DNA of 64,000 nucleotides, from contig NW_005201183.1 of the NCBI RefSeq assembly GCF_000372725.1, positions 67,972-131,971 of the forward strand. Reading direction: 5' to 3'. Below the pieces are notes generated by a model, which ran no database searches, was not told the DNA's origin, and saw nothing but the letters and a program-made list of their open reading frames with translations. The translations under genes were made by a program, and so were the position numbers. Below, piece by piece: positions 14,801 to 59,054 of the stretch (position 1 is its first letter; each line of letters begins with the position of its first letter). The stretch is from Emiliania huxleyi CCMP1516. Taxonomy: Eukaryota.

Positions 14801-17800
14801 GACCGTCAGGACCTCGCGGAAACGCGACGAGCCGCCGCCGCCGCCGCCCGCCCCCCCCTCCGGGCCCGCCTCTGCCGCGGCCGACGCGCGCACTCCCGCC
14901 GGCACCGGCGCCGGGCCGCCTCCTCCGCGCGCCGTCGCCTCGCCCTCCTCGGTGTCGCGCTTGGCGTACCTAATCTCGGGCAATCTCGGGTAATCTCGGG
15001 TCATCTCGGGTCATCTCGCCCTCCTCCGTGTCGCGCTTGGCGTACCTGGCTCCGCACCCCTCCTCCGCGAGCAGCTCCAGCGGCGGCTCCTCCGACGCGG
15101 GCTCCAGCATCACCACGAGCGGGGCGCCTACCCGCAGACCCGCATCCGCGTGAGCCGACGCCTGCGCGCTCCTCGAGCCTCCTCGAGGCGGCGGCGAGGC
15201 GGCGGCCGTCGCGAGGCAGCGCTTCGTCCGCCGCGCCGCACGTCGCTGCGACGCCCTTTCGTATGCAATGCAGCACCTCGTCGCGGAGCGCCTCGTTGCC
15301 CGTGGGGTCCGTGTCGTCGACCTAATCTCGGGTAATCTCGGGTAATCTCGGGTAATCTCGCCTCGTTGCCCGTGGGGTCCGTGTCGTCGACCTCGAACCC
15401 GCCCGCCTCGCCCTCCCCCTCCTCCTCGCCCTCCCCCTCCCCCTCCTCCTCCCACCCCCGCCCGGCCAGCGCCGTGTCGGGCTCGCCGCCGCGCTTGACC
15501 GCTCCAGCGCCTGCGTCGGCCCCACCGCCGGCCGCCACGCCGCCGTAGCCGAGCAGCAGCCGCCAAGGCACGGGCGCGAAGAGGCCGGCGCGCTGCTGCG
15601 ACGCGAGGAAGGCCATCGTCCACAGTCCCTGCATCGAGAGCATCACCTATCGAGGTCTCGGGTGGTCAGCACCCTGTTGAATCGCCCACAGTCCCTGCAT
15701 CGAGAGCATCACCTATCGAGGTCTCGGGTGGTCAGCACCCCCCTGCTGACCTTAAGGGCGGAGGCCGGAAGGCCGTCGTCCACAGGCCCTGCACCGAGAG
15801 CGTCACACCTGCATGAGGCCGATCCAGTTGGCATCGTCCCCCGCGTGCTCCGGGTCGCTCCACCGCCACGTGGCGAGCGGCTTGCACGCGCGCACAAGCC
15901 ACTTGCAGTCGGCGACGTTGAGCGAGCCTTGGGCGGTCACGGGAGGGGGGGGGCCAGGGGGTGGCGTCGGCCCGGCTGCTGCGGGCAGCGCTGCCGGCGG
16001 GAGAGTGGGCGCGTGGGCGCGTGGGCGTGTGGGCGTGTGGCGTGTGTGGCGGGCGTGTGGCGGGTGTGGCGGGCGTGTGGGCGTGTGGCAGGTGTGGGGT
16101 GTGGCGGGTGTGGCGGGTGTGGGTGTGGAGAGGGTGGGCGTGTGGCAGGTGTGGGGTGTGGCGGGTGTGGCGGGCGTGTGGCGGGCGTGTGGCGGGTGTG
16201 GCGGGTGTGTGGCGGGTGTGGCGGGCGTGGTTCACCCAGCTGGAACATGAGGTAGTAGAGGGGGATCCAGTAGAGCCCGTAGTGGTGGAAGATCGAGTCG
16301 ACGTTCCGCGCGATGGCCTGCTCGCGCGCGCGCATCGCGCGTGTCGACGCGCCGTTCATCGTCCACCCGAGGACGACCACCAGCAGCAGCGAGGTCAGCA
16401 GGCTGAGGAACGCCCAAAAGTAGGCCGCCAAGACCCACGTGCCGCTCGCCAGCGCCGAGTCGTCCTCGTCCGACCAGTCGCCTGAGTAAGAGCTCCTTCA
16501 CCGCTAACCATGAATCCTTACTTCGGAGCCCTCCTCGTCCGACCAGTCGCCGGAGCGCGGCCAGCACTCGATCGGCAGCGTGTGGATCGGCCGCGGCACC
16601 GTGGCCGTCGCAAAGCAAAACTTTGACGCGGCGGTCGCGTTCGCGCCGCCGCTGCCGCCGCCGCTTCTGACGCCGCCGCTGCCGCAGCCCTCCGCGCCGA
16701 AGAGCCCGGCGGTCCACACCCGCTCCTCGCGAGTCGCGTGCACCTTGGGTTCGGGTACCGTGGGGTAGGGGAGGGTGGGTTCGGGTACTGTGGGGATGGG
16801 GGAGGGCGAGTCGCGTGCACCTTGGCGGCGGCGAGGGCGGCGCAGACGAAGCGCGACGTGTCAGACTGGTTGAGAGAACACGACGTCTCCATCAGCCTAC
16901 GCGCACGGCCGGCCCACTCTAGCGGCCTGCTCGACGAGCCGGCGCGGTGTGCCTCGCCCCTCGCGCCCGCGCACGGACAGGTTGGCGGGCGGGAGCTCCG
17001 CCTTCCACGTGTGCAGGGTTAGGGTCAGGGTTAGGGTTAGGGCTAGGGTTAGGGTTAGGGTCAGGGCTAGGGCTAGGGCTAGGGCTAGGGCTAGGGCTAG
17101 TGTTAGTGTTAGTGTTACGGTTAGTGTTAGTGTTAGGGTTAGTGTTAGTGTTAGGGTTAGGGTTAGTGTTGGGGCTAGGATTAGGGTTAGGGTTAGGGTT
17201 AGGGTTAGAGTTGCCTTCCACGTGTGCAGGCAAAAGCCGGCCTCGATGGCAAGCAGCTCGTCCCGAGCCTACAGACCCTCCTCCGGGCAAGGGTCACGCA
17301 AAGGCTCTGACGGAGGCCAGCTCTCGCCGGCGGCTGAAGTCGGCGCACCGGGTGGTGCCGCAGCCAAGGGACGGACGAGTCGAGCGGCTGCGACGCCATC
17401 CGCGTCCTGTCGAGCTCGTCTGCCGCGCCGGCAGGGTCGAGGAGGAGGCGGAAGCCATAGGAGAGGGCCGCGCTGAGGCCTGGAGAGGGAGGCGGCGAGA
17501 GACACTGCGGGAGGGGGAGGGGGGGGGGCGTTGGGGTGTCGCGAGACAGACGACAGCTTGTAGCGGCACCGTACGCGCAGACGCGGGAGCCGAAGGCGAG
17601 CCTGTTCACGGCTGCAGGTGTGAAGAGACGCCGTTCACAGCGTGAGACCGCAGACGCGGGAGCCGAAGGCGAGCCAGAGCGAGAAGGCGGCAGCTCCTCC
17701 CCAGACGAGAAGGTGGTAGAGGCGGCGGGCGCGCGCGTTGTCAGTGAAGGGGTCGCGCCTTGGGTTTGGGTGCCGTGGAGTAGGCAAGGGTGGGTTCGGG

Positions 17801-18753
17801 TACTGTGGGGGTAGGGGAGGGGTTGTCGGTGAAGGGGTCGCGCCTTGCGCAGGGGCGGGAGGGGCGGGGCGGGGTGGGAGAGGCGGGCAGGGCAGGGGAA
17901 GGAGGAGGGGAAGGAGGAGGGGAAGGAGCAGGGGCGGGGGGAGGGGCGGGGCGAGGTGCACATCAGCAGGAACACATCGACCGCCATCACCAGAGCCTGC
18001 GGGCAGAGGGGGCCAGGTGAGACCAGCCTCCACGGTACAGCCGTGCCCGCGCGTGGCGAGGAGGAGACCCATCCCTCGTGCGCCAGGAAGCCAAAGTGCA
18101 CCAGCAGCGGGTTGAGCGACGCCGCCACTGAGCCGCAAAAGTCGCGCCCGATGAGCGACGCCTACAGAGCAGCAGGAGGCGACGGCTGGGCGGAGCTGCC
18201 GTCGTCACCGGTGCGGTCTCCCTTCGGTCCCGGCGCAGCGGCACCGGCACCGCCAGCTCAGCCAGCGCCGTGCCAGCCACCGCGGCGGCGGCGACGCCCG
18301 TCGCTAGCGACCGCCTGCGGATCGGGCGGCGCGGGCGACGTGAGAGAGACAGCAGCGCTGCTCGGCCCTCTCCTCCCGCACCTCGGCTGCTCATCTGGCG
18401 GTGACTCTCGCTCCCACGCCCCTCCCGGGCCGCGAGATGTACACCCCCACAACTCTGCGCGCGCACCAGGCCAGCAGCTGGTTGGGGTAGCGGCGCCACT
18501 TGCGGACGTAGTAGCACCACAGGTTGAGCGCCACCGCGCCGAGGGAGGATGTGGCGCCCATCAGCCTCGAGATGGTGCTGGGCCTGCTGGTCAGCTGCAA
18601 GCCACCGACAACGAAGGCGGCAAAGCCCAAAGCAATTAGCGCCGCCTGGAGAACGCATACTCTGTGATCAACAACGGGTGTGAGAGACAGGTCGCGACGC
18701 GGGCACGTCGGCCTGCACGGCAGCGTCTCGTCGCACGCCGGCAATCCCGGCAT
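11874..18753 (-). CDS. GPCR-PIP kinase fusion (7TM + PIP5K domain), multi-exon, spans an N gap
   Basis: Predicted spliced 7TM motifs RYPNQLLAWRS, LAHEGWALVMAVD...RDPF, YHLLVW, ECW, GLYW, MQGLW; LR-x9-GV at 15250-15288; PIPK motifs GASGAFLF, VVKT, YDLKGS, LKDNDL, MDYSLLLG, GVIDVLQ. Start codon uncertain. Confidence 0.85.
12748..12783. repeat. Perfect 15-bp inverted repeat with 6-nt loop (intronic)
   Basis: tgcgtcctagaatgc-aaaaac-gcattctaggacgca; a further arm-like copy near 12824-12837. Confidence 0.85.
12873..12971. other. Assembly gap (others at 46091-46190 and 47786-48077)
   Basis: N runs. Confidence 1.
13525..13746 (-). other. GT-AG intron with 24-nt tandem repeats; starts with a diverged copy of the next exon
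   Basis: gtgagcgccgttctcgccc versus exon gtgagccgcaccttcgccc; removal gives RQT|VSRTF in frame. Confidence 0.7.
14390..15391 (-). other. Three introns (14390-14458, 14970-15045, 15322-15391), each an exon duplicate plus (cccgagatta)n
   Basis: Each begins with an 18-33-nt copy of the downstream exon and ends ...gagattAG; removal restores the frame. Confidence 0.85.
16744..16820 (-). mobile_element. Intron-forming cassette family B, copy 1
   Basis: 15-nt exon duplicate plus ccccacagtacccgaacccaccctcccctaccccacggtacccgaacccAAG. Confidence 0.75.
17002..17214 (-). repeat. Intron made of degenerate telomeric (CCCTAA)n flanked by an 18-nt direct repeat
   Basis: gccttccacgtgtgcagg at 17000-17017 and 17213-17230; GC donor, AAG acceptor. 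Confidence 0.85.
17602..17674 (-). mobile_element. Intron-forming cassette family A, copy 1
   Basis: 26-nt exon duplicate plus tgtgaacggcgtctcttcacacctgcagccgtgaaCAG. Confidence 0.8.
17759..17843 (-). mobile_element. Family B copy 2, inserted at an existing acceptor
   Basis: gttgtcRgtgaaggggtcgcgccttg duplicated at 17737-17762 and 17822-17847 around the B core. Confidence 0.75.
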
Positions 18754-18891: not shown

Positions 18892-19000
<109 letters not shown>

Positions 19001-20001: not shown

Positions 20002-22107
20002 ATGAGCCATCCCAGTCTCGCCATGGCCGGCGTCGCCCTGCTGGCCGCGGCCGTGGCTGCCGAGCGCGTCTGCGTTGACCCAGGCGGCGCGAGCTGCTCC
20101 GAGGCGTCCGACGCCGCCCTCTCTGACGCCCTCTCTGCGAACGAGGTGGACCACAACCGCGAGTCTGCCGAGGCGTGCCGGCACTTCTTCTGCGGCGATG
20201 CGGCGGCGGAGGTGGCTCTGCCCCAGATGAGCCGCCACCCGCTCGGCCACGGCCCGCTGGTCGACATCGTCGAGGGCGCCGGCGAGGAGGAGCACTCCAT
20301 CTACGTGACGGAGGCGCCGCTCTTCTCGGCGGCCGAGTGCGACGAGGTGGTGGCGTTGGCCGAGGCGGAGGGAGGCGGCCTTCCGAGCACAAAGTCGGGC
20401 AAGTACCGCATCGGCAAGGCCTGGGTGAGGGAGATGCCGGGTGTGCTGAGCTGGTTCAACGGCGCGCTCGAGACGAAGCTGTACCCGGCGCTGGCGCAGC
20501 TCTTCCCGGCGCACGTCTCTTCGACGGCGCAGCTGCGGGCGCACTCGGTCGCCATCCTCAAGTACAACGAGTCGCACCCCGCGACCGACGTCCACATCGA
20601 CGACGCGCTGCTCGCCTTTACGGTGGCGCTCTCGCCCTCCTCCTCGTTCGAGGGGGGAGGGACGTACTTCGAGAGCCTGCGGGCGGTGCTGCCGATGGGG
20701 CAGGGCATGGTCAGGTGTGAACAGCGTCTCTTCACACGTCCAGCTGTGAACAGGTGCTGCCGATGGAGCAGGGCATGGTCACTTTCCGGCCCGGCGCCGT
20801 GCGGCATGCGGGCCACGCTGTCTCCTCCGGCCTCCGGTACGTCCTCGGCGGCTTCATCGCGCTCGCAGACAGAGTCGAGCACGTGAGGCGGCTCAACGAG
20901 CGTGGCAACCGGCTGCTGCTCGCCCCGTCGCCGACTGCCCCCGAGCTCGAGCAGGCGGACCGGCTGTTTGCGCAGGGGCTGCGCCTCAACCCGCACTGCT
21001 CCCTCTGCCACGCCAACCGCGCCGACGCGCTGCTGCGCCTCGACCGGCCTGCAGAGGCGGAGGAGGAGCTCAAGGCGCAGACGGCGCTGCTGCCGCTCGA
21101 CTCGGACGCCCACTTCTCGCTCGGCGTCGCTCTCCGCGCGCAGGTCCATATCTCCCCGTATCTCCCCATATCTCCCCGTATCTCCCCGTATCTCCCCGTA
21201 TCTCCCCACCTTTCCCCACCTCTCCCCACCTCTCCCCACCTCTCCCCACCTCTCCCCACCTCTCCCCACCTCTCCCCACCTCTCGCTCGGCGCCGCCCCT
21301 CCGCAGGGCCGCACGGCCGAGGCGGTGCAGGCGTACCAGGCCGCGTTGCGCCTCGTGCCGCGCGACTTCGACGCGTGGGTGAACCTCGCCGCCGCACTCG
21401 CTGACCTGGAGCGGTTCGGCGAGGAGGCGGACGCCTACGAGCACGCGGCGGAGCTGCGGCCGTCCGAGGCGCTGCCGTGGCTCAACTTGGGCGAGGCGCG
21501 CCTCTCGACCGGCGACGAGGCCGCGGCGGAGCTCGCCTTCCGACGCGCCTCTGCGGCTGCACCGACCGACGCGCGGCCGTTCCTCTCCCTCGGCCGGCTG
21601 AGCGCTCGCCAGTCGAGACCTGCCGAGGCGATCGACCTCTTCTACCAGGGCGCGCTCGCAAACTCGGAGTACTTTGACGAGGCGAAGCAGGGCATCGCCA
21701 CCGCGCGCACGCAGCAAGGCCGCCTCTCCGAGGCCCTCGCAGACTTCGAGTCGGCGCAGCGGATGGCGCCGAACAGCGAGAAGGTGCGCGCGGCGGTGGA
21801 GGACGTGAGGCGGCAGGCGGCGGCACTCGCGCGCGTCGAGGCCGGCCTCGAGGACCGAGCAGCGGAGGTGTGCGGCACGCCTTGCCGCGACGTGGTCGAC
21901 ACGTCCGGCTACGCGGTGTGCGCCGTCTCGTGGGCGGACGGCTGCGGCGACGCGCCGCCGCCCGACGGCTTCTCCGCCGCCTCACGCGTGGCGGACCTGT
22001 GCGAGCGCACTTGCGCCTTCTACCTGCTGCGAAGCGGCGCCGTCGTGGACGAGGCGTCCGGAGAGGCGACGGAGACGGCGGCAGGAGAGGCGGCGGCCGC
22101 GCCGTGA
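20002..22107 (+). CDS. Secreted 2OG-Fe(II) oxygenase + TPR repeats + Cys-rich C-terminal domain; introns 20686-20753 and 21144-21306
   Basis: Signal-like MAGVALLAAAVAA; HxD (DVHID), FEGGGTYF, RHAG, GLRY; TPRs such as DSDAHFSLGVALRAQ|GRTAEAVQAYQAAL. Confidence 0.85.
20686..20753 (+). mobile_element. Family A copy 2
   Basis: gtgctgccgatggRgcagggcatggtca duplicated around ggtgtgaacagcgtctcttcacacgtccagctgtgaaCAG. Confidence 0.8.
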
Positions 22108-22565: not shown

Positions 22566-23553
22566 CGGAAGCGGGCAGAGGCCGTCAGGCGTCTCTCCGG
22601 CCACTGGCGTCTCAGCGCGCTCGCAAAGAGGCCGACCAACCAACAGACTCACAGAGAATCACAGTCTGCTCATGCAGGTGGGGACCCTGTCCTCCTCCCC
22701 CATCCCTCTCACAGTGGTTTGGGCTCGGCAGCTTTCTCAGCCCTCAGCCGAAGCTGGGGCCGGTGGTCCCTTGGGAAGAAAGCGCTCCCCAATGAATTCG
22801 ACGCGGTCGAGGGGAGAGAGAGAGGCGGATGCGGCGGTGGCGGCGGCTGCGAGAGAGGGAGGTGGACTGCAGCGGCCCGGGGGCCGACTAATGGCTGCCC
22901 GTAGAGAATGGGGGAGAGGGGACACCGTGGTTTTTGGCTAGTTTGTAGTAAAGAAGATCGATCGGTCACACCGCCATCGCCGTCGGGGAGAGGGGGGACG
23001 ACACTGGTCACTGCTTCGGCAGCGTGCACCTCGATCCTGAACCGTGTTTGTTATGACCCCCCCCAATGAACACGCCAGAGAGAGAGGGCGAGACGATCGA
23101 GGGGTCCCGTACCATGCGGAATCGACCCTATCCAGTGCTCAAGTGCTCAAGTAAAGAAGAGTTGCACTTGGGCTTCCCCTGAATGGGTTGGTGTGGACCA
23201 GTGTGGACAGCTTCACAGCTCCACTTCCTGCGCAATTCCAAACCCGTACAACTATGCCTGGGACATTATACATTCGTGGAGCTGTTCACACTTCGCGCTG
23301 TGAAAAGAGCTTGGCCGCCCGCGCCGTGTTGCTGCTGGCGGCCCGCTCGCTACGAGCCCTCCCCTCTGTCTCGCAGTCACATGTACATGTGCATGTACGG
23401 TGTCGGATGCACAGGTGTGGTGCTGCTTCCACAAGCCGGCCTTCGCAGGAAGTGTCTCGGATCAATGGCCGCGCTCTCGACGGCTCCACTCCGGACGCCT
23501 AGGCAGCTACCGAGAGCTTCCTTCCAGCAGCGCAAGGCGCGAGGCGCAGTGCC

Positions 23554-23680: not shown

Positions 23681-24530
23681 CAGCTGTGTCCAGCCAGCTG
23701 TGCACTGTGCGACACAGAAATCTTTTTATTTGAAGAGTCACAGTGGAAACCCTGCAAGAAAAAATTGATTTTATGGGCACGGGTTTGTGCGTCGTCATCA
23801 TCTGTCTCGCGTCCACCCATACCGCGTTGGTGTCCAGTCCGAGCCTGGCTGTTCTTCACCTTCCTACCTAACGCTAACCACATGGTTCGACTGTTTTCTT
23901 CTCTTCCTTCTTTCGGGACTGGCGTGAGAGCCGTGATTTCTTGTTGGTTTTCAAAAATCTCTCTCTCTGGCGTGCACTGAGAAAGAAATCATGCCGCGTC
24001 ACAAGGCGCAACAAACAAAAACTTTGGATTGCTTAAATTCTCTCAGGCCGCCGACAGAGAGCGGACAGGGACGGGGCCCCGACCTTATTGAGCGGTTCGT
24101 CCGCGTCGCGCACTCGTCCCAACCGGGGGCCGCAGTCTTGCTTGTACCGTTCCTGACCTGTACGCCTCGGTACAGACCCTCGCTGTCGCTCCGTGTACAG
24201 CTCACACACAGCTCACGACAAGAACCCGAACCGCAACCGAACCGCCAGGGTGTACACGTCGAGTGGGATCGGGTTGCGGGCTAGACCTAGAGAGCCCTAG
24301 GCCTAGCCCTGGGGGGTGCGCGTTCGCCAGGAAACGCGAAGCACTTGGAGCACACACTTGGAGTGCAGTCAGAGGGCCCAACTTCAGAATCATCGTGCTT
24401 TTTGGGGTTTAGGGACGTCTCCCAGAGTGACCATAGTTATGCCGAACGACCACCAGCTTGGGACCACCGCACGCCGCTCCGCTTCCTTTCATTCCCCTCC
24501 CTCCACTGAGAGTCACCGTGCCGCCATCAA

Positions 24531-25541
24531 TCACCGGCGTGGCCTGCACCCCTCCATCCCCGGCCGGCACACGCCGCACGCCGACGGGCCGTAGCGCCAT
24601 CCGAGGCCGCGCGCGGCCGCCCAGAGGCCGTCCGGCCCAGGACCCGTGATCGCCTTGTACCCCGTGACCGACGCTTGGCGCGTGGGGGCGCCAGGCTGCG
24701 GCGTGTCGGCTCGCAGGCCGAACCCCGCGCTCTCGCACACGACGGCGAAGCATGTGGAGGAGCGGTTGGCAGGGTCGCGCGCCGTTCGCGCCAGGCAGCA
24801 CGCCAGCGGCTTCCCCGCCAGCGCCAGCCTCTCAAAGGGCGCCTTGACCGCCTGCGCGAGCGCGGCCATCACGCCGAACAGGTCTGGCATGACCTGCCCA
24901 CGCGCCGCGGCCGCGTCGTACGACGCCATCGTGCGCAGCACCGCGAGCATGGCGTCGCGCCCGCCCGCTTGCAGGTAGTCGCACAGATGGAGGACCCTGT
25001 GCGCGGCGGGCGCGGGGCGGATGCCGTGCAGCTGCTCGAGCGCCCCTCGCTGCAGCAGCACCGTGTCGGGACGCAGGCGGACGACCGCGCTGAACGGGCG
25101 CCCGTCGCGCGCCTCGCGAGCGAGAAGCATGCGCCGGCACGCCGCTTGCTGGAAGCTCTGCACGAGGAAGGAGCGCGCGCCGCTGCACTCCGTGGGCGAT
25201 CTGGACCCGCACCGCGACAGCCGTGGCAGCGCCGAGCCGTTGAACTGTAGGAGCCCGTTGCGGCTGCAGTTGCCCCGGTCGCACGCAGAGAGGAGGCGCT
25301 CAGCTGTGCAAGTGGCATTGGGAGCCACCCGCACCGCGCTCGCGTAGACGAGCATGCTTGTCTCCGCCACCAGCAGCTTGCGCCGCAAGAATGCGCGCGC
25401 TGAGAGGAAGTCGCTGTCGCGCGGACCGCAGAAGAAGGCGTCGGCCGCACCGCTCCGCGGCCGCACGATCTGGACCAGATGGCTTGCCACCAGCCTCCAC
25501 GCTCGCAGCTGCCCCGTGATGCACACTGCGACCCCCGCCAT
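24531..25541 (-). CDS. Intronless putative glycosyltransferase-like protein
   Basis: N-terminal VAVCITGQLR and FSAVVRLRPD motifs, which I recognise from a widespread putative GT family; family not confirmed. Confidence 0.65.
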   Translation of the reverse strand: MAGVAVCITGQLRAWRLVASHLVQIVRPRSGAADAFFCGPRDSDFLSARAFLRRKLLVAETSMLVYASAVRVAPNATCTAERLLSACDRGNCSRNGLLQFNGSALPRLSRCGSRSPTECSGARSFLVQSFQQAACRRMLLAREARDGRPFSAVVRLRPDTVLLQRGALEQLHGIRPAPAAHRVLHLCDYLQAGGRDAMLAVLRTMASYDAAAARGQVMPDLFGVMAALAQAVKAPFERLALAGKPLACCLARTARDPANRSSTCFAVVCESAGFGLRADTPQPGAPTRQASVTGYKAITGPGPDGLWAAARGLGWRYGPSACGVCRPGMEGCRPRR

Positions 25542-27090
25542 CGTGCGGCGCCGCTGTGCCCGTTCGACGAGGCGAGTCCACGCTCCCCAGCGTCCAGGGC
25601 AGCGTGACCACCGGAGCAGCAGCCAGCCTCAAGGGACGCGGGGACCGGCTAGTTCCCGAGGTCGCGCGGGGCTGACCCGTACTAGGTCCCGGGGGACGAG
25701 CTGCAGCCAGAGAGCAGAGCCGCAGAGCACACGTCAACGGCCGGTCGCGGACGACAGGTTCTCTCGGCTCCAAGAGACGCCGTGCACAGCAAAAAACAAC
25801 CCCCCCCAGGATTGTCCTTTATGCATATCCTTTGGCCGCGTTGGGTAGCGAGAGGATTGGTGTGACGCGATCCACGCAGGCGTGTTTTCTGGCGGCCGAC
25901 CGTCAGTGCACGGAGTTGCCCCTTCTCCGACTGCCCCGGCTAGTTCACGAGTTTCGCGGGAGTGACCCCATGCGTCAAACCCGAGACCTAGCGCGGGTGG
26001 GTTGGAGGTGGCTCGCTGCAGGGAAGGGCTGTGTAAGAAGCCGATCCCCGTAGTCCGCCCCGCTCCTCCCCATCGGGCCGCATGAGCGGCCACGCCTCGC
26101 AGATTCGTTTTCGCGCCTGGGTCAGGCGCGCGGGGCATCCCCCGGGTCGCTCGACCAGCGATCCGAAGAGTGGCCACTATGCGAAGGAAAGAGCGGGGCC
26201 CTCGACGCCTCAGTCCGGCCCTCCGAGGGGGGAATGGAATTGCGGGGTCCCCACGGGCGCCTCTCTTCGGCCCTCTCCCGAGGGGGGGAGGGGAGCAAGG
26301 GGGTGGGGGGATCGGGGCGGTGGGGAGGGGTCTCGGGTTTCGTGTGGCTATACTTGCCTTTCGGGGAGGGGCCTCAGGACGGCGAGCGCAGTGGCGCCCG
26401 CTCGACGTCTTCCCCTCCTCCCCATCGAGGCGTCTTCCCCTCCACCCTCGAGAGTACCTATACGCTAGACGAGCGAAGGGCGGTGGCCAGTGCGCGGGCG
26501 AGGGGAGGGGGCGGGGGGGCGGCGGGCGGGCGGGCGGGGAGGAGGGGAGGGGAGGGGAGGCTTAGCCATGCAGCTGCTGTCGAGCCGAGGCGGCGGCAGC
26601 CGCCGCAGCTGCACCGCCTCCCGTCGCGCCGCGGTCGCCGCTCCCTCAGCGCCGTCTCCGCGTCGTCACCCGCCGTAGCTTCTCCTCCTCCGCCGCCGCC
26701 CGGTCCCGAGAGTGCGGTGGTGGTGTGTATAGTGCAAGGGAGGTGTGTGTGCGTGTCTGCCGCAGATCTCTGCCGTTGTCTGCGCCGCGATCCGCCGCCG
26801 CGCCGCCGCGCCGCCGCCGCCTGCGCTCGCCGCCGCCTCGTAGACGGCTCCTCTCGCGCTCGGAGAGCCGCGCAGCGGGCCGCGAGGTTGTGGTCAGAGA
26901 GCAGCAGGGTTGAGATCACAAAATCGGCCAATTTTGAGGTTGCTCGAGAGAGCCTGGAAATGGTCCCGCGCCGTAGCCCCGGTGCCGGCGCATCACGTCT
27001 CAGCCGCGAGGGGCCGGTTCTGCCGCGCAGTCGAGCAGCAGGAGCTCGGGGGCAACTTTGTCGACAAACATCGGTACGCGGGGCCAACCC

Positions 27091-27260
27091 TCGGAGACCC
27101 GTGTTTACTTTACGGCCCTTTCCCTGCGAACGCGCACCCCCCAGGGCTAGGGCTCTCTTGCCCGCAACCCGATATCGATCATCCGGCCCGCTGGGTGCGC
27201 TTCTCAGCTCCCCGGCCCTGGATGTGAGGTTGATGACTGCACTCCAAGTGCTCCAAGTGC
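27091..27260 (-). repeat. About 170-nt repeat unit; opposite-orientation copies at 31322-31530 (period 169) and a partial copy at 24267-24372
   Basis: Shared cctcacatccagggccg..gagctgagaagcgcaccc, gggttgcgggc, gggtgcgcgttcgc, gcacttggagtgcagtca. Confidence 0.85.
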
Positions 27261-31808: not shown

Positions 31809-33974
31809 ACCACCGCCACGAGCTCCACCGCCGCCGCCGCTGCCGCCGCCGACGGCCTCGCATGGCTACGACATATGCGACCGTCAGAACCAGCGGTGCC
31901 AGGTAGAGGCGCGCGCTCGCCTCGAAGCCGCCGCCGCGTCGGTCCTCCGGCACTCGGCGGCAGAGGCGGCGGCGCGGGCGCGCTTCGAGACGGCAGCTGC
32001 GGCTGCAGCGGCGGGCGGTGCAGCGCTCGAGGCGGGCGCGGCACGCCGCTCTCCGCGGGGGAGCAGCCGGCGGCGCGCCGACGACACCGTCTTTGCCTCG
32101 GCCTCCGCCTCCTTCGCCCCGTGCGGGGCTTCGGGAATGCGCATCCCCGACCCGGCCCCGGACCTCCATCCCTTCGAGGCGGCGCGGCAGGACCTTGCCC
32201 CCTCGGCCGCCGCCTGCGCCGCGTGGGTGGCGGAGGCGCGGCGCGGCCGCATCGAGGCGGAGGCGGAGCGGCAGGAGGCGGAGGCGGCGGCGGCGGCGGC
32301 GAGGCTGGAGGCGGCCGAGGGGAGGCGGCGGGCGGAGGCGGCGGCCGAGGCGGTGGCGGAGGCGGCGGAGCAGGTGGCGGAGGCGCGTGCGGCGGCGGCA
32401 GAGGCGACGGCGAGGGCGGACGCCGCCGAGTCGCGCAGAGACGAGGGGTGTGAACGGCGTCTCTTCACACCCACTGCTGTGAACAGGCGGACGCCGCCGA
32501 GTCGCGCTCGCTTCGTGCCGAGGCGGCGCTGCAGTCCCTGGCGCTGCAGCCGGCCGCGCCGCAGTCGACCGCGCCGGAGCGTTCGGGCGGCGGCTCTCTC
32601 CTGCCCGCCGCGCTCGAGCGACGCGATGGGCCGGCCGACACTGGCGGGGGCGGGAGCGAGGGAGGCGGCGGCGGCGGCGGCGGCGGTGAGTCTGGAGCCC
32701 CCGGAGCGGGCCCCGGCGGCGCGGCGGCGGCAGCCTGCGGCGCAGTCGACGAGGCGGCGCTGCTCCGGCGGGCGGGCGCGGCGGAGGAGGCGGCAGAGGA
32801 GGCGTCGGCCGCCGCCGCCGCGGCTTCCGCGGAGGCGCGTTTGCCTCGCGCCGCTTGCCGGCGGCCCTTCCCGCCCTGCCCCGCATCCCCGCCCCTCCCG
32901 CCCTGCTCCCGCATCCCCGCCCTTCCCGCCCTGCTCCCGCATCCCCGCCCTTCCCACCCTGCTCCCGCCCTGCAGGTGCTCGCGCTGCGGAGGAGGCTCG
33001 AGGCGGCCAGCCTCGAGGCGGTGGAGGAAGCAGCACGCGCCGACCGAGCGACCGAGGCGCCTCATATCTCCCCATATCTCCCCATATCTCCCCATGTCTC
33101 CCGCCTAGCGCCGACCGAGCGACCGAGGCGCCTCTCGCCGGCTGCTGTCGCTCGTGGGCCGTGGGCCTCAGAAGCGAGCTCTTGCTTTAACTGCTAGGCG
33201 CTTGCTAACGCTAACCCTAACCCTAACCCTAACCCTAACCCTAACCCTAACCCTAACCCTAACCCTAACCCTAACCCTAACCCTAACCCTAACCCTAACC
33301 CTAACCCTAACCCTAACCCTAACCCTAACCCTAACCCTAACCCTAACCCTAAGCCTAACCCTAGGTCATCAGAAGCGAGCTCTCGCTGACACGTTTAGGC
33401 GCTTCGCCGGCTGCTCGCCACGGCGGGCTTGGCCGGCCGGTGGGGCGGGGAGGCGGGGGCGGGAGGCGGCGCGGAGCAGGACGGTCGCGGGCCCGCGTGG
33501 GTAGATGCCGCCGAGGCGGCCCTCCAGTGCTGGGCGGAGGGCGGGCGGGAGGCGGCGGCGGCGGCGGCCGGGTCGGGCCCTGCAGAAGGGGCGGCGGCAA
33601 AGCTTCCTCGCGCACCGGAGGAGGCGCCGCGCGCGGCGGAGGCGGCGGAGGCGCGGCTCCCAGCGCGAGGGACAGCCGGCACGCGCGAGGAGGCGGCAGC
33701 CCGGCGCGAGCTCGAGCGTCGCCGCGGTGCGGGCATCCGCCGCACTCCGCCCCTTCCCTTCCGACGTAGCACCCCTGCATCGCCAGGCGCGAACCGCGAC
33801 GCCGTCGAGCGGCGCGCAGCCACGGAAGCCGACCCGTCCGGCGGCGGGAGGCGCCGAGGAGCAGCCATGGCGGCGGACCATAACGATAGAGTCATGCGCG
33901 CAGTCAGCGCGTATGCTGTGCGGAGCCACCTGGCGCTGCCGACCGCCCCTGCGGCGGCGCTCTGCCGGAGATGA
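31570..33974 (+). CDS. Ala/Glu-rich coiled-coil protein of unknown function, multi-exon
   Basis: Frames join after removing introns 32416-32486, about 32836-32976 and 33057-33398. Confidence 0.55.
32416..32486 (+). mobile_element. Family A copy 3
   Basis: gcggacgccgccgagtcgcgc duplicated around ggtgtgaacggcgtctcttcacacccactgctgtgaaCAG. Confidence 0.8.
33205..33364 (+). repeat. Interstitial telomeric (CCCTAA)n inside an intron
   Basis: Nearly pure array flanked by the duplicate tcagaagcgagctctYgct. Confidence 0.95.
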
Positions 33975-35553: not shown

Positions 35554-38500
35554 TCACGCCATCCCCATGACGAGACCAATGCCCTGCAGCAAGTCCACCG
35601 CGCGTCGCTGCGTGGCCCCGTCGCCCGCTGCGAGCTCCCGCAGCCGCGGTCGGATCGCGTCGAAATGGTCGTAGCACTCGTGGCACCGGCGCGCGCGCGC
35701 CTCGCCGCTCAGATCAACGCCGACGCCGCCAGTCGCCGCCGACCTTGCCGCGGCCACCACCGACCCAAAGCTTGAGAGGACCAGCGAGAGCGCGTCGAGC
35801 GACGCCTCGGCGTGCCTACGTGTTGCGGGAGTGCGTCAGCAGGGGGGGCCGGCGCCGGGGTGGCGCGCGCGCGAGAGGCGCGTCACTCTTCGTGGGAGGA
35901 GGCGAGGGAGCGTCTAGGAGGTGTCTAGGAGGCGTCTAGGAGGCGTCTAGGAGGTGTCTAGGAGGTGTCTAGAAGGTGTCTAGGAAGTGTCTAGGAGGTG
36001 TCCAGGAAGTGTCTAGGGAAGCGTCACTCTTCGTGGGAGGAGGCGAGGGAGTGTCTAGGAGGTGTCTAGGAGGTGTCTAGGGAGGCGTCTAGGAGGTGTC
36101 TAGGAGGTGTCTAGAAGGTGTCTAGGAAGTGTCTAGGAGGTGTCCAGGAAGTGTCTAGGAAGCGTCACTCTTCGTGGGAGGAGGCGAGGAGCTGAGTGAG
36201 CGTGGGCAGCAGCAGCAGCGCCCCCTCCAGGTCTAGCGGGACGCGGCGCAACGTGCCCGTGCGCAACACGTCCACCGTGACGGACGCATCCCCCAGCCGC
36301 GCGAGGTGCTGCAGCATCGCCTGGCGGCAAGGGCCGCAGGAAGGGTCAGAGAAGGAGCCCAATCCCCCCCCCCCCCCGCCCAACCGAGGAGGCTGCAGCG
36401 TCGCCTTGAAGTCGCCCGCCGCGTGGTAGCAGCCGAGAGCCCTCAGCGCCGTCAGCCGCGCCGAGAGGCAAGAGACCTGCAGCGGCGACGGGGCGAGCAG
36501 CGCCGACAGCAGCGCCTCCTCGTCTCGGGGCACAGGGCCGCCCCCTGCCCGCGGCAGGAATGCGGACGGGTCGAGCCCGCGCGCCTCGGACGGGTCGAGC
36601 CCGCGCGCCTCCTCGAGCCCGCGCGCCTCCTCGAGCCCGCGCGCCTCGCCGACCCGCGCCCCGCCGCAGCCGCCCGCCGCCCCGCCCTCGCCACAGCCAG
36701 CCGCCGCGGGCGCGGGCGCCGGTGCGGCCGACGCCGCCTTGCGCGCGCGCGTCGCGGGGTATCGCGGCGGAGGGAGCTGCGCATTCCCCAGGAGGTTCTC
36801 GCTCGACGCGGCAGTCGCCTGTTCACAGCAGTACGTGTGGAGAGACGCTGCTCACACCACAGGAGCTTCCCGCTCGACGCGGCAGCGGAAGCGGGAGTGC
36901 GTCAGTAGGGGGGCCGGCGCCGGGGTGGCGCGCGCGCGAGAGGCGCGTCACTCTTCGTGGGAGGAGGCGAGGGAGTGTCTAGGAGGTGTCTAGGAGGTGT
37001 CTAGGAGGCGTCTAGGAAGTGTCTAGGAAGCCGCCGGCGCGAGGCCGCCGCAGAGAGAGTCTCCCATCGACGTGCCGACCGACTTGTGCCGTCCTCCGGC
37101 GGTGGCGAGCGGCTCCGACTGCTCCGCGCACGCGGCCCTGCAGCCGCCTCCCCCGCGGCCAGCCTCGCGAGCGCCGCCCCCCTCCGCCAGAGAGGCGGCG
37201 GGGACGTCGGCGGCGGCGAAGTCCGCCGGCCTCAAGCAAGCCGCTGTGGCGGCGGCGGCGGCGCCAGAGACAGCTGCAGCGCCGTGGCAGGCGGACCTTC
37301 CGCGCCGGACGGCGGCGATCTGGGCGCGGCAGCCGGCGATCTGCATACGCGCGCAGGCGGACACCGACAGCTCGTCGCCCTCGTCAAGGCCAGCAGTGTC
37401 GGGGCCGGCAGGGGCGGATGCGGCAGGGGCGGATGCGGCAGGGGCGGGAGCGGCGGCGGGAGGGGCGGCGGGAGCGGGGGCCGCCTTGCGAGCGGCGGGG
37501 ACAGGGCGGGAGGAGGCGGAGGCGGGGCGGGAGGAGGCGGAGGCGGGGCGGGAGGAGGCGGAGGCGAGGTGGTTGGCTCCGCCCTCGTGCCTCGCGCCCT
37601 CGCGCCTCGTCCCGCCCTCGAGTCGAGCCGCGCCGGCGGGCGGAGGGTGGCCGAGCCCGCGCAGCTCGTCGAGGCGGACTCCCCACACGGTGACCACGCA
37701 CTCGTGGAGGGCCGCAGCCAGCACCTCCCCCTCTCCTCCCTCCCGCTCCCCTCCTCCGCCCCCGCCGCCCCCGACGATGCAAAAGTCGGACAGCCGCGAC
37801 CAGCGTGTCTCGGAGTGGAGATGGCAGCGGGCGGGCTCCCACCCCCACCCGCGCAGCGACTCCTCGCCCGCCGAGAGCAGCGCGCTCCCGTCTGGCGTGA
37901 AGGCGACCCGCCGCGACCCTCCGCCGGGCTCGGGCAGCGCCGCCCCGACCGGCGAAAACGTCTCCAGGTCCCAGAGGCGGACGGTGCGGTCGGCGGCGGC
38001 GGTCGCCATAAGGAACTCGGTCGGGTGGATCGCGAGAGCGGACACGGCGCCCGCGTGCGTGCAGAGCTCCGTCAGCAGCTTGCCCGCGGTCAGGTCCCAC
38101 AGCCTGACCTCGCCTCCGTCGCAGCCAGAGACCACCCACCGGCCGTCGGGAGAGAAGAGGAGGTTGCGCACGGCGCCGGCGTGGCCCCGGTACGTCTGGA
38201 TGCACGCGCGCTGGCGCATGTCCCACACCTTGAGGTACGTGTCTGCCGAGCCCGACGCGAAGAACTCTCCGTACGGATGCCACTCGACCGTGATGGCGCT
38301 CGAGCGGTGGCCGGTGAGCGTGCGCGCCACGCGGCCGTGCTCGAGGTCCCACATCTTCAGAGTGCCGCCGGCCGAGCCGGCGACGACGGTCCGCTCCGAA
38401 CAGTCGAAGGAGACCGACTCGACGCTGCTGGTGTGGCCCGCGAGGGACAGGATCGCGTTGGGGCGGCCGACCGACCAGAGGTTCACCTTCTTGTCGTCGC

Positions 38501-48500: not shown

Positions 48501-49738
48501 AGCTGCTCGACGTAGAGCGCCTTGGGTTCGGGTACCGTGGGGTAGGGGAGGGTGGGTTCGGGTACTGTGGGGGTGGGGGAGGGCGAGCTGCTGCTCGTAG
48601 AGCGCCTGCCTCCGCTCCGCCGCCTCCTCGCCCCCCTCCGCGAGCGCGGCGTATGCCGCCGCCGCCCTGCCGTGAGGGAGCAGCCTCCAGCGCGCGGCGA
48701 GCCACTCGAACGCCCGCTCCCCGCCCTCCGGCTCCGCGGCGGCGTCGAGGCGGAGGGCGGTGAAGTTGGCGACCAGCTGCGCCGTGAGCGGCTCGGTCAA
48801 ATCCGCCAGCGAGCTCAGCACGCCGCACTGCGCCTGCAGCCGCGCGGCGGCGCCGCTGCCGCCGCCGCCCTCGCCGAGCAGCAGCGCCACCCCCACTGCA
48901 ATGAGCGCCGCCTGGGCGACCCGCCCGGAGCGGGTCCCACCGCCACCCTCGGCCTCGTCCGGCGCGACGCCGGCCGCATTCGCGCCGCCGCCGCCGCCGC
49001 CGGCGGCGGCGGCGGCGCCGGAAGCGTGCTCCGTGGTCGTGTCTCCCTCGCCGGCGACCTGCCGGCGCAGCGACGGAGTCGGCGGCGGCGGAGGAGGCAG
49101 CACTGCGTTGTGCGGAAGGCCGACGAGGGCGTGGTAGATGGCGGCGGCGCCGATGCCGAGGAGCGGCGATAGGGCGGCCGTCACCCCGTCCAGGATCGCC
49201 ACCGCCGCGAGGAGAGCCCACGGCAGCCTGCGAGTCTGCAGCCGCACACTGACCAGCGTGACGGTCGACTCTGGCGACGACTGCGCCCAGAGCTGGAGCA
49301 GGGCGAAGAGCGTGGCGGGCGCGAGGGAGGAGGCGTAGCGGCGCTGCACGGGCGGCACGGTCGCGGCGGCCAGCGCGGCGGCGCCGCCAGTGCACAGCAG
49401 CAAAACAACCAGCAGCCGGCGCGAGCCGAGAGCGGGCTCGAGCCGCTCGCACGCGGCGAGCCAGAGCCAGAGGTGGCAGCCGAGGCCCGCGAGCGAGCGG
49501 TAGAGGAGCAGCGAGGCGAGCAGCCGTGCGGGCGACGCTGCCAAGGCTGATGGCTCCAGCGTCGCAGCGCTCGCGGGAGGAAGGGCGCCGAGCGCGGCCG
49601 CCGCAGCCGCAAAAGAGTAGCATAGCAGACCAACTGCGGTGACGGGAGGAAGAGAGGCGCGGCGGGCCGAGTCGACGATGAGGAGCCGAGCGAGCTGCAG
49701 GAGCAGCGCCGCGCCGGCTGCTTCTCGGAGCGCAAGCA
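45501..49738 (-). CDS. Derlin (Der1)-like N-terminus with a long downstream multi-exon region (one or two genes, across two gaps)
   Basis: PPVT, RLE, QLWAQSSPE.TV...V...RRLPW...LLGI....IY match the Der1 pattern; downstream exons are unassigned. Confidence 0.55.
46629..47089 (-). repeat. Intron of about 40 x 11-nt repeats (gccgaggtgcR on the + strand)
   Basis: GT...AG; starts gtcgagcgggacgctc versus next exon gtggaggaggacgcgctc. Confidence 0.85.
48521..48605 (-). mobile_element. Family B copy 3
   Basis: 22-nt exon duplicate (3 mismatches) plus a B core nearly identical to that at 16744-16805. Confidence 0.8.
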
Positions 49739-50319
49739 TTCTGCGTGACCTTTGCCTTTCTGGTCGCGCTGATGAGCGCGCTCGCCGACTTGCGCGTGGA
49801 CCTCGGGCACGACCTCGGCGTGGGGAGGGTTGATAGGGGATCAAGAAATCTTCACTAAAGCGGTGTGGTCGCATGGCGCCGTCGACCCCGCCAAAGTGAC
49901 TTTTGAGGCGGTGGTCGCATGGCGCCGACATTGTCTTGAACTACAAGTCCGCCGACAAAATGATTTGTCTGATTCAGAGGACGAGTTGGAGGTGCTCCGG
50001 CAACCTGGCCTGCTTCAGAAGCTCGTCACCGTTGTCACTCAACGTGCGTCATGCGTGATCGAGCTTGAGGGAGGAGCTCCGCTAACGATTCGGCCGGCCA
50101 CCCAACGCCGCCGCCCACTGTACATACCCGCCACCCACAAAGCGCCTGCTCTACTATCCCGTACCACCCGCTCCACTTTCCACTGATCATGCCCGTGATA
50201 GCACCAGCACTGCCGCCGTCCTGGTCTTGAACGTGGGACTCGGTAGTTGTGACCCCCCTGTGCCCTGAGTGAAACAAATCTATTCCCACACATCATTTGG
50301 GGCCCTGTGCGACGGAGGC

Positions 50320-52060: not shown

Positions 52061-52144
52061 CCGCCGCTTTTTTTCGAGATGCGTGTGTCTCGCGGGGGCA
52101 GCGGCAAGGAGGAACCGATGCGCCGCACGCACACGTGTACGTGT

Positions 52145-56614: not shown

Positions 56615-59054
56615 TCAGCCGAGGTCGCAGCGCCCCTTGTGGCGCGGCGCGTTACCCGCCACCGAGAAGCACGAGAGCGACGTTGTCTTCGCCGCGACGC
56701 CGCGCACGCCGGCGAGGCCCATCCGCTGGAGCGCCGCGGCGTCGAGCGGCGGCGGCGTGGCGAGGCCGAGCACGCCGGCGGCGAAGGCGTTCGTGTGGCG
56801 CACGGCGTCCTCCTTGCTCCAGCGCAGCCGGCGCAAGCAGCCGGGCTCCGAGCAGACCCCCAGCAGCGAGGCGTACGCCTCCTGGGCGAGGCTCGCGGGG
56901 AGCGCGCCGCGCGCCGCGCGCAGCCGCGGCTCGAGGAGCGCGGCGGCGGCGGGCGGCAGCGGCGGGGCTCGCGTCAGCGGCAGCCCGCCCAAGCAAGTCA
57001 GGAAGGACGCCTCGCTCTCGGCCAGCAGCAGATGGCCGACTCCCGCAGCGCCGGCGCGTCCGGTGCGGCCCAAGCGGTGGATGTACGTCGCTCGGTCGGG
57101 CGGGGCGCCGAGCTGGACGACGGCAGTCACGTCGGGGTAGTCGAGCCTACGTGGTGTGAATAGTCGAGCCTGCGTGGTGTGAATAGTCGAGCCTACGTGG
57201 TGGTGCATACGCCGGCATGAGGGCGGGGAGACGGCATTGTGCAGCGTATTCAGAGCACCGCGTGAAGACAACGGGGAGGAAGACAGTGAATACAGCGGAA
57301 CACGGTCGAATACGGCCGAATACGTGTCCTCTCGGGCGCTAGTTGGAATACATGAACACGTTGCCCGCTTCTAGGTAGTCGAGCCCTCGCGCAGACACGT
57401 CCGAGGAGAAGAGGAGCCTGCGAGGTGAATACGCCATCACCGCGAGCTCGGCCGAGATCAGCACACCCTCCTCTCCCCCTTCTCTCCTCTCTCCTCTCAG
57501 CCTCAGGGCGGGGAGACGGTGCTGTGCAGTGAATCCAGAGCACCGGGTGACTACGAGGGAGGCGAAGACGACTGAACACGGCTGAACACAGTCGAATACA
57601 GCTGTCCGTGTCCTCTCGAGTGTGGGTTGGGGTACAAGAAGACGGAGTCTGCTTCACTGCACTCCAAGCGCTCCAAGTGCTTCTAGGAAGAGCCGCCCGC
57701 CCTCGCTCGCGCGGAAGGCGGCGTCCACCTGCTCACGCGCACACCCCGGTGTGAAGAGACGCTGCTCTCCCCCCCCCCCCTCCCGCCGCGAGGAAAGGCG
57801 GTCCGCCGACGCGCGCTCCGCGTGAGGCAGCCGCGCGTGCAGCTCGAGCGGCGCGGAGCCGCCGAGCCCCATCCGGCGGCAGAGCGCGGCGAGGAAGGAG
57901 ACGAGGCGCGCGGCGCCGGCGTAGACAATCACCTTTGCGGCCGGGTCCGAGCGCAGCGCCAGCAGGGTCCGCACCAGCTCCGCCGCGAGGGCCGCCGGCG
58001 GGGAGACCGTCACGGCCTGCTCGACCGCCGCGTTGGTCGGCGCTTCCGCTCCGATGGCGTCGGCGACGAGCAAGTCGTCGTCCTCCGCCGCCGTCGGCGG
58101 CGCGCACCCGCGACGCGCGGCGGCGGCGAGCGAGCGCACGTCTCCGCGCAGGGTGGCTGAGAAGAGGAGTGTCTGCCACGGAGGCGCCGCCGGGTGGGCA
58201 GCCCTCCGGAGCGAGGCAACGACCGCCTCGACCGGCCGGCGGAAGCCGAGGGCGAGGAGCTGGTCCGCCTCGTCGAGGACGAGGCAGGCGACGCGGCCGA
58301 AGGCGGACGCCGCGCCGTGCCCGCCCGACAGCAGGTCGTTGAGCCGGCCAGGCGTGCCGACGAGTATGCCGGGGCAGAGTGAGCCGCGCAAGGCGGCGAC
58401 GTCGCCGTGCACGCTCGTCCCGCCCACGGCGCAGCGGCACGACACGCGGGGCATGTGGGAGAGCAGCGCCTCGCACACGGCGCCGGTCTGGGTGGCTAGC
58501 TCGCGCGTGGGGGAGACCAGGACAGCCCGCACACCAGGCTGGTCTGGATCCGCCGCGACCCGCTGGATCGCGGGCAGCAAAAAGGCGAGGGTCTTACCAG
58601 ACCCGGTCCTCGCGCGCGCGATGACGTCGCGGCCGGCGAGGGCGGCCGGAATGGTGGCCTGCTGCACCGGAGTCAGCTGCTCAAACGGAAACGACTCGGA
58701 AAGGGCGAGCCGCAGTGTCGCCAGCAGGGGCAGGGACGAAAAGCTGGCGGAGGCAGCGGCAGGCGAGGCGGAGGCAGCGGCAGACGAGGCGGCAGCGCCA
58801 GACGAGGCGGCAGCGCCAGTCGAGGCGGCAGCGCCAGTCGAGGCGGCAGCGCCAGTCGAGGCGGCAGCGCCAGTCGAGGCGGCAGCGCCAGCCGCGAGTT
58901 CCCGGCAGCCCGCATCAGCCTTGCAGCGCTTGCCGTCAGTGGAAGACTCGGCGTTGCGGCGTTTGCCCTTAGTGGCCGCAGTGCGGTGTTTGCCAGCGAT
59001 GGGCGCGTCGGCCTTACGCCGGACCTTCGCGACGGGACCGCTTGCCGCTGGCAT
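56615..59054 (-). CDS. DEAD-box RNA helicase, multi-exon
   Basis: LTPVQQ, TGSGKT, PTRELA, TPGRL, DEAD, FSAT, SDVSARG|LDYPDV, YIHRLGRTGRAG. Confidence 0.93.
57729..57806 (-). mobile_element. Family A copy 5 (diverged)
   Basis: gagcagcgtctcttcacaccggggtgtgcgcgtgagCAG after a diverged exon copy. Confidence 0.65.

What the first reader, a model, noticed from the sequence alone, without database searches (positions are those of the whole stretch)
17602..57806. Cassette family A: ~40-nt hairpin element ending in CAG, in introns of five different genes
Seen: consensus GGTGTGAACRGCGTCTCTTCACAC-N6-GCTGTGAACAG at about 17602-17640(-), 20714-20753(+), 32447-32486(+), 36819-36858(-) and 57729-57768(-). 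It is always in sense orientation, always forms the 3' splice site and always follows a 21-30-nt exon duplicate. It has an internal inverted repeat GTGTGAA/TTCACAC. At 20686, only removal of duplicate plus cassette keeps the oxygenase in frame. Inference: an introner-like mobile unit with long, variable TSDs, more like retrotransposition or repair-templated insertion than cut-and-paste. Five copies in 64 kb suggests high genomic abundance.
Basis: partly seen in the sequence, partly recalled or inferred. Interest (0 to 1): 0.88.

Follow-up and report, generated by a model that had tools for sequence, protein, structure and literature searches.

The report
Introns built from copied exon starts
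In the bloom-forming alga Emiliania huxleyi, a 40-base sequence ends introns in five genes of this window, each time behind a 21-36-base copy of the next exon's start, and unrelated fillers show the same footprint, which likely means that many of its introns arise when DNA repair copies the end of an existing intron into a staggered break.

Summary
The cassette is real: 5 copies, none in shuffles, all sense and at acceptors in five genes. RNA contigs drop duplicate plus cassette at two copies. Well over 100 other contigs per DNA run carry it with sharp ends, followed by GC or GT. The host is Emiliania/Gephyrocapsa huxleyi. Corrections: the hairpin is weak; two other donors also keep the oxygenase in frame; two duplicates are degraded; no empty allele was seen. 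The long duplicate is not peculiar to the cassette: 10-mer arrays, a 30-mer, telomeric repeats and unique fillers have it too, and duplicate and filler lengths offset each other to give 66-85-nt introns. One cassette intron holds 139 nt copied from the neighbouring intron. Best reading (0.5): target-primed copying from existing intron ends at a staggered break, enzyme unknown; main rival a Replitron-like HUH element. The cassette probably equals a catalogued 37-nt E. huxleyi introner family whose true donor and long duplication were missed. New variant of a known kind.

The parts
20686..20713 (+). 28-nt duplicate of the next exon's start; supplies the GT donor of a 68-nt intron in the Fe2OG dioxygenase-TPR gene
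   Evidence: (RNA contig X9 skips 68 nt GT..AG)
20714..20753 (+). cassette A copy; acceptor
32416..32446 (+). 21-nt perfect duplicate (GC donor, inferred) plus 10 extra bases
32447..32486 (+). cassette A copy; 71-nt intron inferred; an RNA contig piece begins at 32486
17642..17674 (-). 26-nt perfect duplicate (GC donor) plus 7 extra bases
17602..17641 (-). cassette A copy; 73-nt intron removed in two transcript contigs (X6, X9)
36819..36858 (-). cassette A copy; acceptor of a 213-nt intron (GC donor at 37031, inferred from frame) in a katanin p80-like gene (WD40 + con80)
36860..36885 (-). remnant exon duplicate (24/26 identical)
36891..37028 (-). 139-nt, 96%-identical copy of the 3' part of the downstream intron (35825-35963), carrying a 28-nt piece of the exon end at 36162-36189
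57729..57772 (-). degenerate cassette A copy; acceptor in a DEAD-box helicase gene
57773..57806 (-). degraded duplicate; GC donor at 57806 (78-nt intron) restores the homolog register H..FR
14390..14458 (-). duplicate + 10-mer array filler (family B), 69 nt; removal matches 4 database proteins
14970..15045 (-). duplicate + family B filler, 76 nt (splicing inferred)
15322..15391 (-). duplicate + family B filler, 70 nt (splicing inferred)
15647..15806 (-). two tandem duplicate + filler units (family E)
16482..16550 (-). 19-nt duplicate + unique filler (D), 69 nt
16744..16820 (-). 15-nt duplicate + two 30-mers (family C), 77 nt
17759..17843 (-). 22-nt duplicate + family C filler; transcript contigs begin at the acceptor 17758
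48521..48605 (-). third family C intron with degraded duplicate
17000..17230 (-). telomere-like array between two 18-nt copies that hold AG|GC
33168..33387 (+). telomeric (CCCTAA)n array between two 19-nt copies
21144..21306 (+). mirror class: filler gives the donor, a degraded copy of the upstream exon end gives the acceptor; spliced in X9 and X11

Best explanation
Cassette A is the spliced 3' end of short introns whose 5' part is a copy of the next exon's start, and it likely spreads by target-primed copying: a staggered break about 15-35 bases wide would open at a G|GY site in an exon, the free 3' end of the antisense strand would pair with the AG|GY junction of an existing intron, copy about 40-60 bases back into it, and rejoin. 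Fill-in of the stagger makes the duplicate. The duplicate's GC or GT becomes the donor, the copied piece brings the acceptor and probably the branch point, and splicing restores the protein exactly. Shown: anatomy, splicing at two copies, abundance, the AG|GY junction genome-wide, the same footprint on unrelated fillers, one intron-to-intron copy. Inferred: the break, the priming, selection for a total length above about 62-66 nt. Unknown: the nuclease, the polymerase, and whether the template is DNA or pre-mRNA.
For: (a) Unrelated fillers, including telomeric repeats and unique sequence, share the long duplicate: 43 non-tandem repeat pairs against 0-6 in 10 shuffles, 23 of 43 cut to GY..AG (some are protein repeats). 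(b) 139 nt of one katanin intron, with a piece of its own exon, sits inside the cassette intron 1 kb upstream: templated copying between introns has happened here. (c) The three family B copies lie within 1 kb in one gene, as local templating predicts. (d) Contigs from other loci leave the cassette after AG|GC (66 in X2, 61 in X4) or AG|G with T as consensus next base (69, 82); no row for AG followed by another base is among the 24 of 194 rows shown; in the window only 12% of CAG are followed by GY. All 10 cassette-spacer-cassette junctions printed read AG|GY (9, 1). This points to a target rule rather than selection alone. (e) Fillers B and C overlap their targets by 2-5 nt at the AG end, as primer-template pairing would leave. 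(f) Duplicate and filler lengths anticorrelate (r=-0.86, permutation p=0.001, n=10 hand-picked single-unit introns; long arrays left out); tandem units are 62-77 nt. (g) The N6 spacer differs in all copies, also in those with perfect duplicates: many templates, not one master.
Against: Cassette A has sharp ends at both sides (5' edge within 17638-17642), terminal direct repeats and a fixed length, which look like the cis signals of a dedicated element; its overlap with the target is only G|GY. The katanin copy has no long duplication of its own and may be a different repair event. No empty allele was found, so insertion is inferred, not observed. 4 of 8 transcript-supported introns tested show no exon duplicate (two had ends set 1-2 nt off). 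No same-strain DNA/RNA pair was laid. The strict sense and gene bias (5 of 5) is not explained by repair alone.
Confidence: 0.5

Rival explanations
1. Cassette A is a minimal non-autonomous HUH (rolling-circle) transposon of the Replitron-1 or CRe/Helitron2 kind; read antisense it inserts after RC(C), has terminal direct repeats, a right-end palindrome, a fuzzy right end and a variable duplication.
For: Matches the four insertion features listed for Replitron-1 (PMC10288648 section 9); CRe-1/2/3 have 7-19-bp and sometimes longer duplications with extra terminal bases (PMC3627910); extra bases CTCAC and CGAGG recur at other loci; Replitron-like proteins occur in two other haptophytes.
Against: Replitron-N1 duplications shown are 2-8 bp, the element is about 910 bp with 52-bp alignable ends; no Emiliania entry in the Replitron tables; no HUH domain among 43 window ORFs; does not explain telomeric and unique fillers with the same footprint; hairpin weak, no compensatory change in 6 copies.
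Confidence: 0.25
2. A SINE-like or 3'-tail RNA is inserted by a LINE's endonuclease and reverse transcriptase (TPRT), with the AG end copied first.
For: Long variable duplications are typical of non-LTR elements (Dualen, R9; PMC9977147); precise AG end and fuzzy other end; a LINE-like endonuclease/zf-RVT element lies at 2592-8756.
Against: No poly(A) or common tail; fixed 5' edge rather than graded truncation; that LINE-like element's ends carry no cassette motif; no Rfam match; several unrelated fillers would each need a master RNA.
Confidence: 0.15
3. Tandem duplication of about 70 exon bases came first, and the 3' half of the first copy was later replaced by a shared acceptor module through gene conversion or selection; the cassette is a splicing aid, not an inserted unit.
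For: Explains constant total length and sense-only orientation without a targeting rule.
Against: Perfect duplicates abut complete cassettes (17674, 32416), leaving no time for two steps; no intermediate seen in the window; no homology to guide conversion at the 5' edge.
Confidence: 0.07
4. A DDE cut-and-paste MITE or an LTR derivative (the label given to the probable matching family in the 2025 catalogue).
For: Internal inverted repeat; fam4 classed LTR with a 4-bp TSD.
Against: Duplications of 21-36 nt and variable; no terminal inverted repeats; the 4-bp 'TSD' positions fit the internal ACAG direct repeat.
Confidence: 0.03

Closest known systems
E. huxleyi CCMP1516 introner families of Gozashti et al. 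2022 (PMC9860276, Supp. Tables 5-6) and 2025 (PMC12130899, dataset rows fam4/fam3)
   Same: Same species; three families average 37 nt; family 4 has GC 54.05%, 113 of 138 copies in genes; 2025 fam4 has splice sites 113-150 and a repeat at 117-120/147-150. Cassette A from its second GT is 37 nt, 54-59% GC, with ACAG-like words at positions 5-8 and at the end.
   Different: Catalogued with TSD 'N', '?' or 4 bp and class LTR/unknown; transcripts show that the intron starts about 30 nt further upstream in the duplicate. Identity with these families is probable, not proven: their sequences are on GitHub and were not seen.
Introners that carry the 3' site and take the 5' site from the TSD (Symbiodinium, Polarella classes 4-6, 8, 10; Aureococcus)
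   Same: Donor from the duplicate's first GY, acceptor from the element, no change to the protein.
   Different: TSDs there are fixed, 3-9 nt, often with TIRs; here 21-36 nt, variable, no TIRs, and the duplicate is 30-45% of the intron.
Replitron-1/-N1 and CRe-1,2,3 Helitron2 of Chlamydomonas reinhardtii
   Same: Oriented insertion at a dinucleotide, terminal direct repeats, fuzzy end, variable TSD.
   Different: Shorter TSDs, much longer elements, under-represented in coding sequence and introns, not reported to make introns in the passages read; no transposase found here.
Intron gain by staggered double-strand-break repair in Daphnia pulex (PMC4202315); telomeric repeats inserted at breaks (PMC2246262)
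   Same: Direct repeat of the adjacent exon end at the far end of a new intron; telomeric filler with occasional duplication.
   Different: Daphnia repeats are 4-12 bp; here they are 15-36 nt and the fillers fall into repeated families.

Membership tests
Introner (intron-generating repeat) | Sequence-similar copies in unrelated genes | tested here: met
   5 genes in window, L001, >100 contigs with unrelated flanks per DNA run
Introner (intron-generating repeat) | Removed by splicing, protein restored | tested here: met
   no same-strain DNA/RNA pair
Introner (intron-generating repeat) | Similarity over the whole intron | tested here: not met
   only the 3' 40 nt are shared; the 5' 28-38 nt are locus-specific
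Introner (intron-generating repeat) | Presence/absence between strains or species | tested here: inconclusive
   present in X1, X3 (20686) and X2 (17674); X4 poorly covered; no relative's genomic DNA
DDE MITE-type introner | Terminal inverted repeats | tested here: not met
   ends are direct repeats; the inverted arm is internal
DDE MITE-type introner | Fixed 2-10-nt TSD | tested here: not met
   21-36 nt, variable
Replitron (non-autonomous) | Short direct terminal repeats | tested here: met
   11-nt repeat at both ends
Replitron (non-autonomous) | Oriented insertion at a dinucleotide, fuzzy end, variable TSD (Replitron-1 only) | tested here: met
   G|GY rule, 0-10 extra bases; TSD longer than the 2-8 bp shown
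Replitron (non-autonomous) | Fuzzy end traceable to the parent copy's flank | tested here: inconclusive
   CTCAC and CGAGG recur at other loci; parents not identifiable without the genome
Replitron (non-autonomous) | Autonomous partner encoding Y1 Rep with the same ends | not testable with these tools
   no genome held; none among 43 window ORFs; no Emiliania row in published tables
SINE / non-LTR retroposon | 3' poly(A) or simple tail; small-RNA-derived head | tested here: not met
   none in 6 copies; no Rfam match
SINE / non-LTR retroposon | Partner LINE sharing the 3' end | tested here: inconclusive
   the one LINE-like element in the window does not; rest of genome not searchable
Gozashti E. 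huxleyi 37-nt family | Sequence identity with the published family | not testable with these tools
   only length, GC and coordinates are in the supplements seen

The most novel reading that the evidence does not exclude
Emiliania huxleyi gains introns at large scale without any transposase: intron 3' ends act as self-seeding repair templates, every new AG|GY junction becomes a donor for the next break, and this one process accounts for the cassette families, the 10-11-mer and telomeric arrays in its introns, and its majority of GC donors, which are simply recruited from GC-rich exons.
Probability: 0.35. Interest if true: 0.86.

Novelty: new variant of a known kind. Interest (0 to 1): 0.64.

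Why it matters
Known introners take a splice site from a 3-9-nt duplication. Here the duplicate is 21-36 nt, makes up a third or more of the intron and is shared by unrelated fillers, which points to a route of intron gain set by the host's break repair rather than by one transposon. It offers a testable origin for the 56-65% GC donors reported for this species (PMC4028052): exons here hold GGC four times as often as GGT (242:58) and 8 of 13 donor-in-duplicate introns in the window start with GC. It also shows a concrete annotation error: the reference models EMIHUDRAFT_467430/467432 keep the duplicate and add 8 false residues, and catalogues built on those models would miss the duplication.

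Tried and rejected
No whole genome is held, so no genome-wide census, copy phylogeny or search for a parent element or Rep gene. Collection scans: 1 locus in metagenome contigs with the strict 38-nt pattern (its duplicate is not significant, p=0.26); 0 in viral contigs; 0 in prokaryote genomes. Summed contig depth at the cassette is 134,292 against 36-52 on flanks in X2 and 15,117 per 471-nt bin against 81 in X1, but the tool states that this is no copy number; used only as 'hundreds to thousands'. Stable-hairpin reading rejected. A partial look-alike at 23284-23321 (score 14 against 53-58) lies in low-depth sequence and was set aside as chance. An early idea that 36819 was an insertion at an older acceptor was dropped. 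Katanin homolog search found nothing; the DEAD-box hit P0044 skips the junction and does not test it; database proteins of the PIP5K-domain gene start downstream of the 17602 copy. Tandem junctions in RNA contigs could be intron circles, unspliced RNA or DNA; they also stand in DNA-type runs, so circles are not claimed. A search for a Replitron-like Rep in E. huxleyi proteins was not run because no query sequence was available from the tools; that question stays open. Read et al. 2013 is not held; its report of 10-11-bp intron repeats is recalled. Files 13-14 of PMC12130899 were not searched, and bioRxiv supplements are closed; they may hold the family sequences. Searches found no description of long exon duplicates in E. 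huxleyi introns; subscription journals are not covered.
Full report
Observation. The 24-nt core matches five places at up to 3 mismatches, with none in 100 shuffles. Each copy ends in CAG and is followed by GC or GT. Upstream of each lies a copy of the bases that follow the AG: 28 nt with one mismatch at 20686, 21 nt perfect at 32416, 26 nt perfect at 17674, 26 nt with two mismatches at 36885, and a degraded gapped copy at 57806. Zero to ten extra bases separate duplicate and cassette. The cassette carries an 11-nt direct repeat at its ends, an internal inverted arm and a freely varying 5-6-nt spacer. It does not fold better than shuffles as RNA and does so in 2 of 6 copies as antisense DNA.

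Host and genes. The first exon at 20002 hits a cluster that includes E. huxleyi EMIHUDRAFT_467430 and 467432. The five host genes are a Fe2OG dioxygenase-TPR protein, an unnamed coiled-coil-like gene, a multi-exon gene upstream of and probably continuous with a PIP5K-domain frame, a katanin p80-like gene and a DEAD-box helicase (the katanin name is my reading of WD40 + con80).

Splicing. RNA run X9 skips exactly 68 nt, GT..AG, at 20686-20753, while contigs of X1 and X3 span the intron without a gap. Seven cluster proteins that are not gene models of the reference (P0001, P0024, P0025, P0028, P0029, P0032, P0033; three from MMETSP) read the duplicated peptide once; the two reference models read it twice because they use the donor at 20710. 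Frame alone does not decide: 3 of 15 donors keep it. At 17602, contigs of X6 and X9 hold one copy of the duplicate and no cassette, and also skip two ordinary introns. At 57729 a GC donor at 57806 gives the register of the homologs; at 36819 a GC donor at 37031 joins the WD40 frame to the con80 frame. No DNA and RNA of one strain were laid, so an intron-less allele in the RNA strains is not formally excluded. In X1 the single mismatch of the 20686 duplicate reads as the exon base, so the duplicate was once perfect.

Abundance and junctions. In X2, 135 contigs leave the cassette at its 3' edge and 162 at its 5' edge in the rows shown; in X4, 143 and 126 (24 of 194 rows shown; contigs are not loci). 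The 3' exits are after AG|GC or after AG|G with T as the consensus next base in all four runs. The 5' exits fall within five bases. All ten printed cassette-spacer-cassette junctions read AG|GY, and the nine have unit lengths of 62-77 nt. No empty allele appeared in X1, X2 or X3.

The footprint is general. The same layout occurs with a 10-mer array (three copies within 1 kb in one gene; one splice matches four database proteins), a 30-mer pair (three copies), unique fillers and telomeric repeats, and in mirror form, where the filler gives the donor and a copy of the upstream exon end gives the acceptor (21144-21306, spliced in X9 and X11). Among ten single-unit introns picked by hand, duplicate and filler lengths offset each other (r=-0.86, p=0.001) and totals are 66-85 nt; introns with long arrays were left out of that count. 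I infer a minimum spliceable length that favours long duplicates with short fillers. Not every intron shows it: 4 of 8 transcript-supported introns tested do, and three of those four had been picked for their duplicates.

A copy caught in place. The cassette intron of the katanin-like gene holds 139 nt that are 96% identical to the 3' part of the next-but-one intron, 1 kb downstream, including 28 nt that come from the exon end beside that intron. The exon piece fixes the direction. This shows templated copying between introns in this genome, though not that cassette A itself moved this way.

Mechanism. I favour target-primed copying at a staggered break (0.5): the antisense 3' end at a G|GY site pairs with an existing AG|GY junction, copies back into that intron and rejoins; fill-in makes the duplicate. 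It explains the shared footprint, the G|GY rule, the 2-5-nt overlaps of fillers B and C with their targets, local clustering and the many spacer variants. It explains the sharp 5' edge and the sense-only orientation less well; length selection and a pre-mRNA template are possible but untested. The main rival (0.25) is a tiny HUH-type element: read antisense, the cassette shows the four insertion features listed for Replitron-1, but those duplications are 2-8 bp, no Emiliania Rep is tabulated and it would not cover telomeric or unique fillers. LINE-driven insertion (0.15), duplication followed by conversion (0.07) and cut-and-paste or LTR origin (0.03) fit worse.

What is known. Gozashti et al. 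2022 list 653 introner copies in five families for E. huxleyi CCMP1516, three averaging 37 nt; family 4 has 54.05% GC, 138 copies and no TSD called. The 2025 catalogue has a 37-38-position family with a 4-bp 'TSD' at positions that fit the cassette's internal ACAG repeat. The cassette is therefore probably catalogued, from gene models that favour GT and mispredict many junctions (PMC4028052). Published introner TSDs in the passages read are 3-9 nt and Daphnia repair repeats 4-12 nt. I found no account of the long duplicates in searches. Papers seen: PMC9860276 and PMC12130899, passages and supplement rows; PMC4028052, PMC4202315, PMC13518057, PMC9977147, PMC3627910, PMC2246262 and bioRxiv 2024.05.26.595999, passages; bioRxiv 2022.12.15.520654, parts 1-4 of 5; PMC10288648, passages, section 9 part 1 and supplement passages; bioRxiv 2020.10.14.339549, parts 1-2 of 4; PMC10996645, search listing only; Read et al. 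2013, recalled. Earlier scan notes describe similar single introns in other marine eukaryotes; they are unchecked leads.

Verdict. Real, spliced, abundant; a new variant of intron-generating insertion whose distinguishing mark is a long duplication shared by unrelated fillers. Mobility today, the enzyme and the template are open. Interest 0.64.

Noticed in passing
window 2592-8756 +: LINE-like element (Exo_endo_phos and zf-RVT domains), interrupted near 6550-7050 by GC-rich sequence; a 14-nt match links 2660 and 9221; no RT core seen in the frames read.
   Followed up: partly
window 24268-27250: About 3-kb element with nested inverted arms (up to 36 nt, 92%), high contig depth; its right end recurs at 31292-31532.
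   Followed up: no
window 31324-31529: 37-nt direct repeat around a 132-nt piece of that element.
   Followed up: no
window 47504-47590: 21-nt perfect duplicate around a 45-nt very AT-rich filler, 66-nt unit, in a 66% GC genome.
   Followed up: no
window 49865-49927: 17-nt perfect duplicate around a 29-nt filler that gives no GY..AG intron at exact removal.
   Followed up: no
window 35816-36189 -: Katanin-like intron in which a 28-nt duplicate spans the existing donor and the duplicate + 11-mer unit is repeated in tandem.
   Followed up: partly
runs X1, X3 (table 5c): One cassette-spacer-cassette contig at depth 547 and 699 against 81 and 9 for the gene: a duplicate+cassette unit possibly amplified into a minisatellite, or a graph cycle since its spacer is 36 nt.
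   Followed up: no
window 17000-17230 and 33168-33387: Telomeric arrays inside genes, C-rich strand sense in both; CTAAC words could serve as branch points (inference). Interstitial TTAGGG tracts are reported as pervasive in Calcidiscus leptoporus (PMC13518057).
   Followed up: partly
window 59074-62015: Perfect direct repeats of 225 and 287 nt (59074/59796, 59509/61729), possibly LTR-like or an assembly duplicate.
   Followed up: no
P0026, P0027: Two near-identical reference gene models on one 366-kb contig, both with an 8-residue false duplication at the cassette intron.
   Followed up: partly
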